Source of the DNA: an uncultured Chlamydiae bacterium
GTDB lineage: Bacteria > Chlamydiota > Chlamydiia > Chlamydiales > JAJFMB01
Direction: 5' to 3'
DNA: 64,000 bases
NCBI GenBank assembly: GCA_963696295.1
Contig: CAVOJR010000001.1
Coordinates: 2,428,467-2,492,466, forward strand
Every line of letters begins with the position of its first letter. Position 1 is the stretch's first letter. A model generated the notes under the pieces. That model was given only the letters and a program-made list of their open reading frames with translations, did not search any database and had not been told where the DNA came from. The position numbers and the translations under genes were made by a program. Below, one piece after another: positions 57,248 to 62,912 of the stretch.

Positions 57248-60200
57248 TTATGAGACTTCCAAATACTCAGCCAGATACCGGCCGGTGTAGGAAGTCGGGT
57301 GGGTGACAATCTCTTCGGGGCGCCCGGCGAAGACGAGCTGGCCGCCCTGCTCCCCGGCTTCGGGGCCGAGATCGATCAGGTAGTCGGCGTTTTTGATCAC
57401 GTCCTGGTTGTGCTCGATGATCACCATGGTATTCCCTTTGTCGACGAGTTTATGCAGCACTTTCAGCAGGAGCTGGATGTCTTCGCTGTGCAGCCCGGTG
57501 GTGGGCTCGTCGAGGAGGTAGAGGGTCTTGCCGGTGGAGCGCTTGGCGAGCTCGCGGCTGAGCTTGATCCGCTGCGCTTCGCCGCCGGAGAGGGTGACGG
57601 TCTCCTGGCCGAGCTTCAGGTAGCCGAGGCCGACGGAGATGAGGCGGTCGAGGATGCGGACTATTGAGGGGTGGTTTTGAAAGAGCGCCTTGGCCTCGGT
57701 GATGGTGAGGTTGAGGATCTGCCCGAAGTTTAGGCCGCTGTAGGTCACTTCGAGGCTGACGGGGTTGAGGCGGAGGCCCTGGCAGTCTTCGCAGTCGACT
57801 TGCACGGGTGGGAGGAAGTGCATCTCGATGCGCTTGTAGCCCATCCCCCAGCAGGAGGTGCACATGCCGCGCCGGTGGTTGAAGCTGAAGTGCTTGGGCT
57901 GCAGGCCGCGCATGCGGGCGGCGGGGAGGGCGGCAAAGAATTCTCTGATTTTTGGCAGGACGTCGGCGTAGGTGCCGACATTGGAGCGCACGGTGTGGCC
58001 AATGGGATTCTGATCGATCGAGATCAAGCGGTCAAAGGCCTCTATCCCTTTGACGAGGGTTCCGTTGATCTCGACCTGGTCGGTTTTATTCAGCCCTTGC
58101 TGCAGCGCGGGGAGGAGTATCGATTGCATGAGGGTCGATTTTCCGGAGCCGGAGACGCCGGTAAGGCAGGTGAGGGCGCGGCAGGGAAAGGATAGGCTGA
58201 GGTTCTTGAGGTTGTTCGCGGAGGCGTTTTCGACGAGGAGCTGTCCCTGGTCGATGGCTCTTTTTTCAGGCACGGGGATGGTTTTGCGGCCGGAGAGGTA
58301 GGCGCCGGTGAGCGATTTGCTGTTGCGCTCGATCTGGCTGAGGGTGCCTCTTGCGACGATGTGGCCGCCATGCTCGCCGGCTGCGGGGCCGAAGTCGAGC
58401 AGGTAATCGGCGGTGGCGATGGTCAGGGGGTCGTGCTCGACCATGAGCAGGGTGTTCCCGAGCTCTTTCAGCTGGTGCAGGGCGCGGTTTAAGCGGGCGT
58501 TGTCGCGCGGATGGAGGCCGATGGTGGGCTCGTCGAGCACGTAGAGCACGCCGGTCAGGCCGCTGCCGAGCTGGCGCGCCAGGCGGATCCGCTGGGCTTC
58601 GCCGCCGCTTAATGTTGGCGCTCTGCGGTCGAGGCCGATGTAGGTCAGGCCGACTTCGCAAAGGAAGCGGAGGCGGTGGAGCAGCTGCTTTTTCACTTCA
58701 TCGAGGAGGGGCTCGGCGAGGGGGATCTGCTCTATGAAGGGGAGAGCTTTTTCCAGGGGCATCTGGCAAAGGTCGCTGATGGAGCATCCCTCTATGGTGA
58801 CGTTTCTCGCGAGGGGATTGAGCCGGGTGCCCTGGCAGGAGAGGCATTTGGTCTCTTCCAGCAGGGGGATGATCTCCTCTTTGATGTGGCCGCTTTTTCC
58901 CGCCTTGGCGAGCACCTGGTTGATCCCTATCCAGCGGAAGGAAAACCCTTCTTTACCGGTCAGCCACTTCTCGGAGCCGTTCATCAGGCTTTGCAGTTTT
59001 TGGGGGGGAAGGGTGTCCAGCGGGGTGAAGGGGTCGATTCCCTCCTCTTCCAAAAAGGCGAAAAGATAGTCGAAGGTCTTTTCGGAATAGAGCTCGGGCC
59101 ACAACAGGCGCACGAGGGAAAGGGCGGACTGCTCCATCACTTCCGGGTGATTGGTGAGATTCGCGCCGTATTGAAAGCCGAGGCCGGTGCATTCGGGGCA
59201 CATGCCGGCGGCGGTATTGAAGGCGAAGGTCTGCGGGGTGATCTCGGGATACGATTTGCCGGTGCTTTCCACGGCGAAGGCCAAGTTGAAGAGCACATCC
59301 TCTTTTTCCCGCATGACGGTGAGCTTCCCGTTGCCGATTTTGGCGGCGTTTTCGATCGCTTCGAAGAGGCGGTGCTTGATCGTGGCGTTCACAACGAGCC
59401 GGTCGATGACGAGGAAAAGCTCGTTTTTCCGCTTCCGGTCAAAGGGGATCTCCTGCTCCAGGGCAAAGAATTCCCCGTTCAGACGGATCCGCACATACCC
59501 TTGCCGCTGCAGCCTGGTGATGATATCGGAAAAGTTCTCCTGCTTTTTCAGATCGATGGGGGCTAGGATCTGCACTTTTTCCCCTTCGGGGTAGCCGAGG
59601 ATCCGGTCGACGACATGGTCTTTGCTGATCGCCTTGATCACTTCGCCGGTTTCGGGGCAGTGGGGGATGCCAAGGCGGGCGTAGAGGATGCGCAGGTAGT
59701 CGTAGATCTCGGTCATAGTCCCGACGGTGCTGCGGGGGTTGCCGGCATGGGCCTTTTGCTCGATGGCGATGGCGGGGGAGAGCCCCTCGACTTGCGGCGA
59801 CTTTTGGCTTTGGCATCTGCTTGACAAACTGGCGCGCGTAGGGGGAGAGCGATTCGATGTAGCGCCGCTGCCCTTCGGCATAGATGGTGTCGAAGGCGAA
59901 CGAGCTTTTCCCGAGCCGGAGGGGCCGGTGCAGATGGTGATTTTGTCGCGCGGGATGGCCGCGTCGACCAGCTTTAAGATTATTTTGCTCAGCGCCGGTC
60001 ACGGTGATTTCCCGGATGGACGGTGTTTTTTTCGTCCCTTTTTTCCGGGCGAGCGCTTCCTGGATCGCGCTTTTTGGGATCGTGATTCAGAGCCTCGTTG
60101 AGCGCGTGGCCGGTCGGGGTGTCCATGAGGGCGATCTTTTCTGGGGTACCTGGCAGCCACCAGCTCGCCCCCCGCTTCGCCCCCTTCGGGGCCAAGATCG

Positions 60201-62912
60201 ATGATCCAGTCGGCTGTTTTGACCACATCCATGTTGTGCTCGATGACGAGGACTGTGTTGCCCATCTCGACGAGCTCGTGCAGAACTTTAAGCAGGTGCT
60301 TGATATCGTGAAAGTGGAGCCCGGTGGTGGGTTCATCGAGGATATAGAGGGTTTGCCCGGTCGCCGGGCGGACCAGCTCTTTGGCGAGCTTGATCCGCTG
60401 CGCTTCGCCGCCGGATAGGGTGGTGGAGGATTGCCCGAGCTTGATATAATCCATCCCCACTTTATCCAAGGTTTCGAGTTTATGTTTGATGGAGGGGATA
60501 GTTTCGAAGAGCTGCCAGCGCTTCCTGCACATCCATTTCCAGGATATCGTAGATGTTTTTCCCTTTATAAAGGACTGAGAGGGTTTCCGCGTCAAACCGC
60601 TTCGCCTTGGCATAGGGGGCAATCGACCCAGGCATCCTCCATGAAATCCATGTCGATCTCACCTGCCCATCCCGCCGCATTGCGGGCAGCGATCCCTCTT
60701 TGACATTGAAGCTGAAGCGCCCCGGCTTATAGCCGCGCGCCTGGCTTTCGGGCAGCTCAGCAGAAAAGGTCGCGGATCTCGTCGAAGAGCTTGATATAGG
60801 TGGCGGGATTGGAGCGGGGATTGCGCCCGATCGGCGACTGGTCGATGGCGATCACTTTGTCGATCTCCTCCAGCCCTTTGATCGCTTTATGGGCGCCAAC
60901 AGGGTGCTCCGCGCGATGCAAGTGATTGGCCAGAAGCGGGTAGAGGATGTCGGTGATCAGTGAGGATTTTCCCGAGCCGGAGACGCCGGTCACGGCGACA
61001 AGCACCCCCAAGGGGAATTCCACATCGATATTTTTGAGATTATGATGCGTTGCTCCGTTGATCTTGAGGCTGCCTTTTCTGGTTTTCGCCTTTTTTTGGG
61101 GATGGGAATGGTTTTTTCCGCCTGAAAGGTAGGCGGCGGTGAGCGATTCTTTGTTTTTCAGCAGATCGGCCAGGGAGCCGTTGACGAGGATTTCGCCGCC
61201 CCGCGAGCCCGGCCCCGGCCCGAAATCGACGATCCGGTCGGCTTCACCAGATGGTCTCTTCATCATGCTCGACCACGACGACCGTGTTGCCCATATCGCG
61301 CAGGTGCTTTAGGGTGCCGATCAGCTTGATGTTGTCGCGCGGATGGAGGCCGATGGAGGGCTCGTCGAGGACGTAGGTGATGCCGACCAGGCCGCAGCCG
61401 ATCTGGGAGGCGAGCCGCACCCGCTGCGCTTCGCCGCCGGATAAGGTGGGCGCCGTCCGGTCGAGAGTGAGGTAGTGCAGCCCCACTTCGATCAGGAAGC
61501 GGAGGCGCATCCGGATCTCTTTTAAGAGCTCGTCGGCGATGAGAAGTTCATGCTCGGCGAGAGGGTGATCTGCTCAAAAAAGCGCAAAGCACTCGGCGAT
61601 CGTCATCTGCGTGATCTCGGCGATCCGTTTGCCGCTAAGCAGGGTGGCTGCCGGGTAGGGCTTTAACCGCTCGCCGTGGCACTCCGGGCAGACCTGCTCG
61701 CTCATGATCAGATTTGCATCTTTTTGCGGTACGTCTCGCTCTTTGCTTCGCTGTAGCGGGTATGCGCTTCGTGCGAGCACCCCTCTCCAGCGCACATGGT
61801 CCATCCAGTCGGCTCCCGTCACCGGGTGGACAAAGTGCATGCGGGTCCATTTCTTTTCCGTGCCGTAGAGGAAGACCTTTTTGGCCTTTTCAGAGAGCTT
61901 TTTCCAGGGGGTTTTGACGCTGAAGCCGTAGATGCGGGCCAAGTTGTCGTAGATATTGCCATACGGACGGTTTGGTAAGAGCTTCCGACCGAGCAGCAGT
62001 CCTCGGCGATGCTTAAATTCGGGTCGATAATTTTGTCGAGGTCGAATTCCTGAACCGCGCCCAGGCCGTGGCAGCGCGGGCACATGCCGGCCGGGCTATT
62101 GAAAGAAAAGTCATGCGGTTCCAAAGCCGAGTAGGAGAGGCCCGACTTTGGCGAGTAGGCATGCATCGAGAAGAGCGTCTCCTCTTCCGTGTCGGGATCG
62201 AAGATGCAGGCAGATGCCGTTCCCCAAATTTAGCGCCGCCGTCACCGATTCGGCGATGCGCGATTTGTTTTCCGCGCTCGACCACCAGCCGGTCGATCAC
62301 CACATCGACATCGTGGGCGACATTGCCGTCGAGGGCGATCTCGTCGTTCAAGTTGATGAAGGTGCCGTCGACTCTGGCGCGCATGAACCCTTTGCGCAAA
62401 AGATCCTGGAAATCCTCTTTGAATTCCGCCTTTTTGTCTCTGGCATAAGGGGCGAGCACGATGAAGCTTCGCTTTTCGGGCAGGCTCTGCACTGTCTTTG
62501 ATGATCCGCTCGCGGCTTTGCGGCGCGACCGCGTTCCCCGCTGACCGGGCAGTGGGGGACGCCGACTCGCGCATAGAGGACGCGGAGATAGTCGTAAATT
62601 TCCGTCATCGTCCCGACCGTCGAGCGGGGATTTTTGCCGGCCGTTTTCTGTTCGATCGAAATCGTCGGGGAGATGCCGCTCGCGCTCTCCAGATCGGGCT
62701 TGGCCATTTCGCCGAGCTGCCGCCTCGCAAGCGTAGAAAGGGACTCGACATAGCGCCTTTGCCCCTCGACGTAGAGGGTATCGAAGGCCAGGGAGGATTT
62801 CCCCGAGCCGGAGACGCCGGTAAAGACGATGAGTTCGTTCGGGTCGAGTGTCAAGGTCGACCGACTTTAGATTGTGGACCTTGACTTTTTTTAAAATGAT
62901 TTTCAGCTTCAC
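57248..62912 (-). pseudogene. uvrA: Double-length excinuclease ABC subunit A (two tandem UvrA units as in Chlamydiae). The C-terminal unit (57248-59881) is intact. The N-terminal unit and the unit junction are disrupted by at least 10 frameshifts.
   Basis: The start is [21 protein letters not shown] at 62912. UvrA motifs are scattered over at least 6 different frame segments: [30 protein letters not shown]; FSFNSPAGMCPRCHGLG; [27 protein letters not shown]; [12 protein letters not shown]; [27 protein letters not shown]; [29 protein letters not shown]. The second unit, 877 aa, is continuous ([13 protein letters not shown] ... [15 protein letters not shown]...[20 protein letters not shown]). 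GC is ~60%. Confidence 0.7.

What the first reader, a model, noticed from the sequence alone, without database searches (positions are those of the whole stretch)
57248..62912. Chlamydia-type double-length uvrA with an intact distal unit but a frameshift-riddled proximal unit and junction
About 5.7 kb of UvrA-coding potential (~1890 codons) matches the tandem-UvrA fusion typical of Chlamydiae. Only the C-terminal 877-codon unit is in one frame. The first unit and the start of the second are broken into at least 6 frame segments; its motifs (2 Walker A, 2 ABC signatures, Zn-finger CxxC) are all recognisable, and the second unit's first Walker A region at 59885-60000 is also frameshifted. Other GC-rich genes nearby (glgP, pgm, SSS) are intact. 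This therefore looks like genuine decay, or a mis-assembly of this internally repetitive gene.
Basis: partly seen in the sequence, partly recalled or inferred. Interest (0 to 1): 0.55.

Follow-up and report, generated by a model that had tools for sequence, protein, structure and literature searches.

The report
Double-length uvrA with likely assembly frameshifts
This is the ordinary double-length DNA-repair gene uvrA found in all Chlamydia-like bacteria, and the roughly 20 single-base frameshifts packed into its first 3 kb look like local sequencing or consensus errors, not real gene decay.

Summary
On the minus strand, 62912→57248 carries about 1,881 codons collinear with the ~1,900-aa tandem UvrA of Chlamydiota. 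That form is the norm in the fetched relatives.

Only 59794→57251 (848 codons) is continuously in the UvrA frame. Between 62855 and 59795 there are 19-23 frameshifts, mostly 1-nt insertions outside homopolymers.

Once the frame is corrected there is no stop codon. All 469 columns that are at least 98% conserved across 120 orthologs are retained. GC3 stays at 0.77, against 0.83 in the intact part. A simulation allows at most about 7 unconstrained substitutions alongside more than 20 indels, which is the opposite of natural decay.

A genuine relic lies in the same window. A partial duplicate of the uvrA 3' end at 54295-54845 shows 25 substitutions and 7 mostly multi-base indels in 531 nt.

An independent Nanopore metagenome-assembled genome (MAG) contig, L026, has the same kind of tract: 30 frameshifts and no stops. 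ppsA in the window also has one frameshift.

Best reading (about 0.8): a real, known-type gene spoiled by a local low-quality consensus tract, not caused by its internal repetitiveness. Genuine recent inactivation is about 0.12. Interest is low.

The parts
57248..62912 (-). Whole uvrA coding region (double-length, about 1,881 codons after frame correction), not translatable as one ORF in the sequence as given.
   Evidence: Collinear end to end with ~1,900-aa chlamydial UvrA orthologs. The corrected translation is 81% identical to P0001 (1,885 aa).
60066..62912 (-). Unit 1: a canonical class I UvrA with two ABC modules, a UvrB-interaction domain, an insertion (DNA-binding) domain and zinc modules. 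It lies entirely inside the frameshift tract.
   Evidence: Corrected residues 4-946 match G. stearothermophilus UvrA 2R6F residues 23-963. PF17760 and PF17755 both hit.
62795..62818 (-). Unit 1 N-terminal Walker A (GVSGSGKS).
   Evidence: Read directly from the sequence and from the ORF translations.
60012..60065 (-). Short basic linker between the two units ([18 protein letters not shown]).
   Evidence: Frameshift-aware alignment. This is the most variable part among orthologs.
57248..60011 (-). Unit 2: a divergent UvrA unit. It has a UvrB-interaction domain hit but no hit to the insertion-domain model.
   Evidence: Pfam scan of the corrected unit 2. It is 33-40% identical to unit 1.
59906..59926 (-). 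Unit 2 N-terminal Walker A (GPSGSGK). A 1-nt deletion in the A-run follows directly, so it is out of frame with the 877-aa ORF.
   Evidence: (family D5).
59795..62855 (-). Frameshift tract: 19 robust to 23 total frameshifting indels in 3.06 kb. About 16-18 are 1-nt insertions, 2 are 2-nt insertions and 3 are 1-2-nt deletions. Sites are near 62855, 62533, 62499, 62279, 62209, 61964, 61774, 61712, 61588, 61553, 61246, 61119, 61084, 60762, 60689, 60661, 60609, 60515, 60151, 60066, 59969, 59904 and 59795.
57251..59794 (-). Uninterrupted in-frame UvrA tract (848 codons). It makes up the C-terminal 848 of the 877 codons of the listed ORF 57248..59881.
   Evidence: only gaps that are multiples of three relative to L081.
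62921..62949 (-). Promoter-like site (TTGAAA-17-TACAAT, 10/12) just upstream of the GTG start. This is a consensus match only.
   Evidence: A GGAGGAGG motif at about 62931-62938 is visible.
54295..54845 (-). Decayed partial duplicate of the uvrA 3' end (a copy of about 57250-57800). It is a genuine pseudogene relic and a useful internal contrast. The 'ORF' 54234-54989 is a by-product of it.
   Evidence: It has 531 aligned nt at 95.3% identity, 25 substitutions (LSGGE changed to LSGSE), deletions of 6, 4, 2, 1 and 9 nt, and insertions of 1 and 6 nt.

Best explanation
The locus is the normal, single-copy, double-length uvrA of a Parachlamydiaceae-like bacterium. It consists of a canonical UvrA unit fused through a short basic linker to a second, more divergent UvrA unit.

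By inference from UvrA biology, the product acts as a covalently linked version of the UvrA dimer. It would sense DNA damage and load UvrB in nucleotide excision repair.

The roughly 20 frameshifts between 62855 and 59795 are most likely not in the organism's DNA. They are residual consensus errors in a locally poorly supported stretch of the assembly, about 3 kb long. The assembly is probably a long-read metagenome or isolate assembly. Elsewhere in the window the consensus is almost clean.

A plausible but unproven source of the errors is a stretch with low read support, or reads from two similar haplotypes. In the second case the consensus would keep both alleles of synonymous differences as an extra base.

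What is shown: the gene's identity and architecture, the number, type and clustering of the indels, and the absence of any substitutional decay. What is inferred: that the indels are artefacts, and how they arose.
For: 1. After frame correction there is no in-frame stop. Nothing differs at 370 invariant and 469 at-least-98%-conserved columns of a 120-ortholog alignment. The intact part shows 2 differences in 283 such columns, and real orthologs typically show 0-5.

2. A simulation shows that 8 or more random substitutions in the tract would leave no trace with P of 0.034 or less, and 23 would never do so. The tract therefore has more than 20 indels but at most about 7 unconstrained substitutions.

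3. Codon-position GC is preserved. GC1/2/3 is 0.58/0.40/0.77 in the corrected tract and 0.62/0.39/0.83 in the intact part.

4. Identity to the closest ortholog P0001 is the same in both parts (0.813 and 0.808).

5. The indel spectrum is mostly +1 insertions outside homopolymers. Both halves hold similar numbers of homopolymers of 5 nt or more (22 vs 21), yet only one half is hit.

6. The boundaries are sharp and ignore gene and domain borders. P is about 7e-5 under a uniform rate.

7. An internal positive control for real decay is the relic copy at 54295-54845. It has 25 substitutions and 7 indels, mostly multi-base deletions, in 531 nt, and its signature motif is mutated.

8. An independent Nanopore MAG contig (L026, MFD04780.bin.2.26) has the same kind of tract. 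It carries 30 frameshifts, 25 of them +1, with no stops, and is 87% identical to an ortholog after correction. Neighbouring genes on that contig are frameshifted too. L051 has 3 frameshifts.

9. The window's 877-aa ORF is on record only as an unnamed NCBI/ENA protein on a 3,298,190-nt contig. Two Nanopore Microflora Danica relatives (P0003, P0066) appear in the database in the same unnamed ncbi/ena form. Such assemblies are Nanopore-only, polished with one round of Medaka (PMC12313526).

10. Insertion sites are enriched at places where deleting either of two adjacent different bases gives the same peptide. This holds for 13 of 18 sites against a 40-46% null (P = 0.006-0.02).
Against: No reads are available, so the artefact is inferred and not demonstrated.

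The rest of the window is nearly free of detectable frameshifts: one in ppsA, with intact ORFs of 1,691, 1,018, 909 and 870 aa. A special local cause must therefore be assumed.

The link to a Nanopore MAG is circumstantial.

The two-allele-doublet idea has only modest statistical support. In L026 it is 15 of 25 sites, P = 0.03-0.09.

uvrA is dispensable for C. trachomatis in cell culture, where five transposon insertions were recovered (PMC6686042). Real loss of the gene is therefore biologically possible.
Confidence: 0.8

Rival explanations
1. Genuine, very recent inactivation. The organism really carries about 20 frameshifts in the first 3 kb of uvrA and has lost UvrA function, with at most an N-terminally truncated unit 2 left. 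The loss would be too recent for substitutions to have accumulated.
For: The sequence as given cannot be translated into UvrA. uvrA is non-essential for C. trachomatis in culture (PMC6686042). The locus has a history of rearrangement, shown by the relic duplicate of the 3' end. ppsA is also frameshifted, so the genome might hold some true pseudogenes.
Against: An indel-to-substitution ratio of at least 3:1 is the reverse of known bacterial mutation spectra and of the real relic 3 kb away, which shows 25 substitutions to 7 indels. There is no stop codon and no change at 469 conserved columns. One frameshift inactivates a gene, and 20 more confined to one half of the gene with a sharp edge have no selective or mutational rationale. 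The +1 insertion bias runs against the deletion bias of bacterial pseudogenes (own knowledge: Mira, Ochman and Moran 2001). The same pattern sits in an obviously error-rich MAG contig.
Confidence: 0.12
2. Repeat-driven mis-assembly. The two UvrA units were confused by the assembler, producing a scrambled or chimeric proximal unit.
For: The gene is internally duplicated. The tract is about one unit long (3.06 kb against a repeat spacing of about 2.83-2.89 kb) and runs roughly from unit 1's Walker A to just past unit 2's Walker A.
Against: The units share only 60-84% identity over stretches of 300 nt or less. The corrected sequence is perfectly collinear with orthologs, with no rearrangement, no missing or duplicated segment and no unit 2 sequence inside unit 1. 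Unit 1 matches orthologous unit 1 at about 80% identity but matches the window's own unit 2 at only about 33%.
Confidence: 0.04
3. Biological recoding. The mRNA or its translation is corrected at each site by editing, transcriptional slippage or programmed frameshifting, so a full-length UvrA is still made.
For: Strong purifying-selection signatures persist in the corrected frame. That is what a recoded but functional gene would show.
Against: No slippery or homopolymeric motif is shared by the sites. No relative shares the sites (coincidences with L026 are at chance level). The sites stop abruptly mid-gene. No bacterial system is known that removes single nucleotides at about 20 arbitrary sites.
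Confidence: 0.02

Closest known systems
Tandem (double-length) UvrA of Chlamydiota, e.g. C. trachomatis CT333 (5,361 bp, 1,786 aa; PMC6686042), Parachlamydia acanthamoebae UV-7 (P0104, 1,927 aa) and Protochlamydia amoebophila (P0113, 1,900 aa)
   Same: The two-unit architecture, length (1,881 codons) and unit order are the same. The corrected sequence is collinear and 73-81% identical to the listed orthologs.
   Different: In the window the first ~1,045 codons are interrupted by 19-23 frameshifts. Orthologs are single ORFs.
Canonical class I UvrA (G. stearothermophilus 2R6F, M. tuberculosis 3ZQJ, T. maritima 3PIH)
   Same: Unit 1, after correction, aligns end to end with 2R6F residues 23-963 and has UvrB-interaction and insertion domains.
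   Different: Here that unit is fused to a second, more divergent UvrA unit for which the insertion-domain model gives no hit. The canonical protein is about 940-990 aa and forms a homodimer.
Error-rich tracts in long-read metagenome-assembled genomes, e.g. L026 = MFD04780.bin.2.26 contig_45955
   Same: Both have dense frameshifts, mostly +1 and outside homopolymers. Neither has stops in the corrected frame. In both, conservation of the corrected protein is high and the tract gives way abruptly to clean sequence.
   Different: In L026 the tract also covers neighbouring genes on a short 19.5-kb contig. In the window it is confined to about 3 kb inside a long, otherwise nearly clean region of a 3.3-Mb contig.
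Truly decaying bacterial pseudogenes, including the relic uvrA 3' fragment at 54295-54845 in this window
   Same: Both have a disrupted reading frame.
   Different: Real decay shows substitutions outnumbering indels, mutated catalytic motifs and multi-base deletions. The main tract shows none of these.
Transcriptional-slippage rescue of frameshifted genes in insect endosymbionts (own knowledge: poly(A) tracts in Buchnera and Blochmannia)
   Same: Both are frameshifted genes that retain signs of selection.
   Different: Those cases depend on long homopolymer tracts at one site. Here there are about 20 sites, mostly outside homopolymers.

Membership tests
UvrA (excinuclease ABC subunit A, class I) | End-to-end similarity to solved UvrA structures. 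| tested here: met
   Corrected residues 4-946 match 2R6F residues 23-963 with E=0 and 1013 bits.
UvrA (excinuclease ABC subunit A, class I) | Two ABC ATPase modules per unit, with Walker A and LSGGE signature motifs, plus CxxC zinc modules. | tested here: met
   GVSGSGKSS occurs twice, GPSGSGK once and LSGGEAQR four times. CPRCHGLG, CPECHG, CPQCGGMG, CPLC, CPECTGLG, CLSCQG, CTSCWGMG and CEDCQG are all present in the corrected translation.
UvrA (excinuclease ABC subunit A, class I) | UvrB-interaction domain (PF17760) and insertion/DNA-binding domain (PF17755). | tested here: met
   Unit 1 hits both (E = 1e-32 and 2e-21). Unit 2 hits PF17760 only.
UvrA (excinuclease ABC subunit A, class I) | One uninterrupted reading frame that can produce the protein. 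| tested here: not met
   There are 19-23 frameshifts between 62855 and 59795 in the sequence as given. Whether they exist in the organism could not be tested.
Chlamydiota tandem UvrA | Two complete UvrA units, head to tail, in about 1,800-1,950 codons, orthologous to those of Parachlamydiaceae, Waddliaceae, Simkaniaceae and Chlamydiaceae. | tested here: met
   The window has 1,881 collinear codons. Best hits are 73-81% identical over 100% of the query and 1,883-1,931 aa long. Relative loci carry single ORFs of about 1,820-1,980 codons.
Neutrally decaying pseudogene | Loss of constraint: stops in the ancestral frame and replacements at conserved sites. | tested here: not met
   The tract has 0 stops and 0 of 469 conserved columns changed. 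The simulation excludes 8 or more random substitutions at P of 0.034 or less.
Neutrally decaying pseudogene | A natural mutation spectrum: substitutions outnumber indels, with a deletion bias and variable indel sizes. | tested here: not met
   About 18 insertions of 1-2 nt against 3 deletions of 1-2 nt. The relic at 54295-54845 shows the expected natural spectrum.
Programmed frameshift or transcriptional slippage | A slippery or homopolymeric motif at the site, with the site conserved in relatives. | tested here: not met
   The contexts are heterogeneous and mostly non-homopolymeric. Relatives have no frameshift at these sites.
Sequencing or consensus artefact | Indels not supported by the majority of reads, or abnormal local coverage. 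| not testable with these tools
   No reads were available. The source record could not be retrieved, and no same-species sequence was found.

The most novel reading that the evidence does not exclude
The ~20 single-base indels are really in the chromosome and arose almost at once, without accompanying substitutions. That would imply an unknown indel-specific, locally targeted mutational process. If the corrected frame is still expressed, it would instead imply a bacterial nucleotide-level recoding or editing system acting on a DNA-repair gene.
Probability: 0.03. Interest if true: 0.85.

Novelty: already known. Interest (0 to 1): 0.13.

Why it matters
It matters mainly as a caution. Taken at face value, this locus would be scored as loss of nucleotide excision repair in an environmental chlamydia, and it would feed into claims about genome reduction or pseudogene load.

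The evidence says the gene is almost certainly intact in the organism and that the damage sits in the consensus sequence.

The tests used here tell assembly frameshifts from true decay without reads, and they can be reused. They are the count of conserved-column changes and stops in the corrected frame, the indel spectrum, and comparison with a bona fide relic nearby.

If the frameshifts were real, they would point to an unprecedented indel-only mutational burst or to recoding.

Tried and rejected
Identifying the source record failed. Exact-product look-ups for the 877-aa ORF, P0121, pgm and glgP returned nothing. The cluster look-up gave only 'NCBI, ENA, contig 3,298,190 nt'.

No second copy of the same species was found. 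The best full-length protein hit is 81% identical. Apart from the window's own ORF, the best unit 2 hit is 71%. Two exact-pattern scans of metagenome contigs across frameshift sites, each allowing the extra base to be present or absent, found nothing.

Homopolymer (454, Ion or Nanopore-type) errors as the cause were rejected. Most sites are not in runs, and the clean half has as many runs.

Collapse of the internal repeat was rejected, because identity between the units is too low and the gene is collinear.

Conserved, programmed sites were rejected. The window and L026 sites coincide only at chance level (3 pairs within 2 codons, about 3 expected).

A uvrA-specific cause for the L026 tract was rejected, because its neighbours are frameshifted too.

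No tRNA or Rfam element lies in the window.

A literature search found nothing on the function of the chlamydial tandem UvrA beyond its annotation and transposon hits.

uvrB and uvrC are not in the window (Pfam scans of the ORFs of 200 aa or more plus selected shorter ones), so their integrity could not be checked.

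
Full report
WHAT IS THERE. The flagged region is a uvrA gene on the minus strand. It has a GTG start at 62912, preceded by GGAGGAGG and a promoter-like TTGAAA-17-TACAAT, and a stop at 57248-57250. The ORF table shows one long ORF, 57248..59881 (877 aa). Upstream of it lies a stack of 66-299-aa ORFs in all three minus-strand frames, each carrying recognisable UvrA sequence. 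The region is GC-rich (0.56-0.65) between AT-rich flanks (0.36-0.41).

DOUBLE LENGTH IS THE NORM. I scanned one genome per species and fetched 80 chlamydial loci (Parachlamydiaceae, Waddliaceae, Simkaniaceae and others). Every locus that holds the whole gene, except two, has one ORF of about 1,820-1,980 codons. The 120 best protein hits to the frame-corrected translation are 1,883-1,931 aa long. They include the named UvrA proteins of Parachlamydia acanthamoebae UV-7 and Protochlamydia amoebophila. C. trachomatis ct333 is 5,361 bp and 1,786 aa (PMC6686042). The tandem architecture is therefore already known.

Unit 1, after correction, matches the solved G. stearothermophilus UvrA end to end and has the UvrB-interaction and insertion domains. 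Unit 2 is more divergent: it hits PF17760 but not PF17755. Several relatives, including the closest one (L081/P0001), also have a uvrA much richer in GC3 (about 0.70) than its flanks. The composition is thus a lineage trait, not a sign of foreign origin.

MAPPING THE FRAMESHIFTS. A frameshift-aware protein-to-DNA alignment against ortholog L004 gives 23 frame changes between 62855 and 59795. There are none in 59794-57251, and the path contains no stop codon. I repeated it with four other orthologs and two penalties. This gives 19 events at every setting plus two short out-and-back pairs (61588/61553 and 61119/61084).

A plain nucleotide alignment to the closest relative's gene (77% identity) independently finds 21 gaps that are not multiples of three in the same tract. 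They are sixteen 1-nt insertions, two 2-nt insertions, and deletions of 1, 1 and 2 nt. Downstream it finds only gaps that are multiples of three.

The first 29 codons of the 877-aa ORF are out of frame. The truly intact tract is 848 codons and lacks unit 2's N-terminal Walker A (59926-59906), which sits between three frameshifts. Under a uniform rate, the chance of the distal 2.55 kb being empty is about 7e-5.

DECAY OR ARTEFACT? The corrected 1,881-aa translation was aligned with 120 orthologs. In the frameshifted part (aa 1-1045), none of the 370 invariant columns and none of the 469 columns that are at least 98% conserved differs. The intact part shows 2 differences in 283 such columns. Real orthologs tested by leave-one-out typically show 0-5. 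Identity to the closest ortholog is the same in both parts (0.813 and 0.808).

Codon-position GC is preserved, with GC3 of 0.77 in the corrected tract and 0.83 in the intact part. I simulated random substitutions in the corrected tract. Eight substitutions would leave neither a stop nor a conserved-column change with probability of only 0.034, and 23 substitutions never did so. The tract thus holds more than 20 indels but at most about 7 unconstrained substitutions.

The indels are mostly single-base insertions and mostly not in homopolymers. The clean half has as many homopolymers of 5 nt or more (21) as the tract has (22).

This is the reverse of natural decay, and the window supplies its own positive control. 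At 54295-54845 lies a partial duplicate of the uvrA 3' end. Over 531 aligned nt it has 25 substitutions, including LSGGE changed to LSGSE. It has deletions of 6, 4, 2, 1 and 9 nt and insertions of 1 and 6 nt. That is what a real relic looks like in this genome.

COMPARABLE CASES. Two of the fetched loci have broken uvrA genes, and both are Nanopore Microflora Danica MAGs. L051 has 3 frameshifts. L026 has 30 frameshifts, 25 of them +1, between ortholog residues 52 and 1181. It has none in the last ~750 codons, has no stops, and is 87% identical to L004 after correction. The genes upstream of uvrA on that 19.5-kb contig are frameshifted too, so that tract is simply poor consensus. Its sites coincide with the window's only at chance level.

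The window's own 877-aa ORF exists in the protein collection as an unnamed NCBI/ENA entry on a 3,298,190-nt contig. Two Nanopore Microflora Danica relatives (P0003, P0066) are recorded in the same unnamed ncbi/ena form. Those assemblies are Nanopore-only metaFlye assemblies with one round of Medaka polishing (PMC12313526). The link to that project is an inference, not a demonstrated fact.

Outside uvrA I found one more frameshift in a conserved gene. ppsA is split at 30257-30266. Its two halves abut at residue 383 of the N. meningitidis enzyme. A chlamydial ortholog (L061) and most of the 150 closest representatives carry both halves in one chain. Long ORFs of 1,691, 1,018, 909 and 870 aa show that the rest of the window is largely clean.

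HOW THE ERRORS MAY HAVE ARISEN (tentative). Many extra bases sit next to a codon's third position, or before a TTR leucine codon. At such sites, deleting either of two adjacent, different bases restores the same peptide. This holds for 13 of 18 +1 sites in the window, against 40-46% for random insertions simulated in the intact half (P = 0.006-0.02). It holds for 15 of 25 sites in L026 (P = 0.03-0.09), where 8-9 sites are 'C-TTR' leucine contexts.

This would fit a consensus built from two similar haplotypes that kept both alleles of synonymous differences. It would also explain why no amino-acid damage is seen. It remains a hypothesis. A stretch supported by very few reads is the simpler alternative. 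The internal repetitiveness of uvrA is not a likely cause, because the units share only 60-84% identity over 300 nt or less and the gene is perfectly collinear with orthologs.

VERDICT. The gene is an ordinary member of the known chlamydial tandem-UvrA family. The frameshift-riddled proximal unit is most probably (about 0.8) an assembly or consensus artefact, not decay. Genuine recent inactivation (about 0.12) cannot be excluded without reads, since uvrA is dispensable in cultured C. trachomatis. Recoding is very unlikely. Interest is low.

Noticed in passing
window 54295-54845 (minus strand); spurious ORF 54234-54989: A decayed partial duplicate of the uvrA 3' end. It is 95.3% identical over 531 nt, with 25 substitutions and 7 indels. 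It forms a direct repeat with 57250-57800 around the AT-rich 727-aa gene at 54994-57174. This suggests that gene was inserted, or the region rearranged, at the 3' end of uvrA.
   Followed up: partly
window 29115-31513 (+), break at 30257-30266: PEP synthase (ppsA) is split into two overlapping ORFs by a single frameshift. Solved structures and a chlamydial ortholog (L061) are single chains, and the two halves abut at residue 383 of 2OLS.
   Followed up: yes
whole window; e.g. 27.8-37.9 kb and 57.2-62.9 kb versus 21-27 kb and 55-57 kb: Gene-to-gene composition is strongly mosaic, with GC3 from 0.29 to 0.83. Conserved housekeeping genes (uvrA, ppsA, glgP, pgm) are GC-rich. Lineage-specific, LRR, ankyrin and hypothetical genes are AT-rich. 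Some relatives (L002, L008, L009, L081) show the same contrast for uvrA.
   Followed up: partly
window 10561-11709 (+): A protein with a PB1 domain plus the 'Ig-like domain from next to BRCA1' (N_BRCA1_IG). From my own knowledge, this is the domain pair of the eukaryotic autophagy receptor NBR1. It may be a host-derived effector of an amoeba symbiont. Other eukaryote-like repeat proteins are nearby: LRR at 3-1346 and 13523-14902, and ankyrin at 5608-6057.
   Followed up: no
L026 (MFD04780.bin.2.26 contig_45955), locus 1600-11150; L051, locus 9421, 10943 and 11131: Public Nanopore MAG contigs of related chlamydiae carry dense frameshift tracts. L026 has 30 in uvrA plus several in upstream genes, and about a third of its +1 sites fall at C-TTR leucine codons. 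Many other large-contig NCBI/ENA assemblies list truncated UvrA ORFs of about 690-1,300 aa.
   Followed up: partly
window 46367-51442 (-), 23981-27037 (+), 21134-23863 (-), 38640-41252 (+), 55015-57177 (+): Very large ORFs (1,691, 1,018, 909, 870 and 720 aa) have no Pfam match. This is typical of lineage-specific chlamydial proteins. The 720-aa protein next to uvrA is lysine/glutamate-rich and looks like a coiled coil.
   Followed up: no
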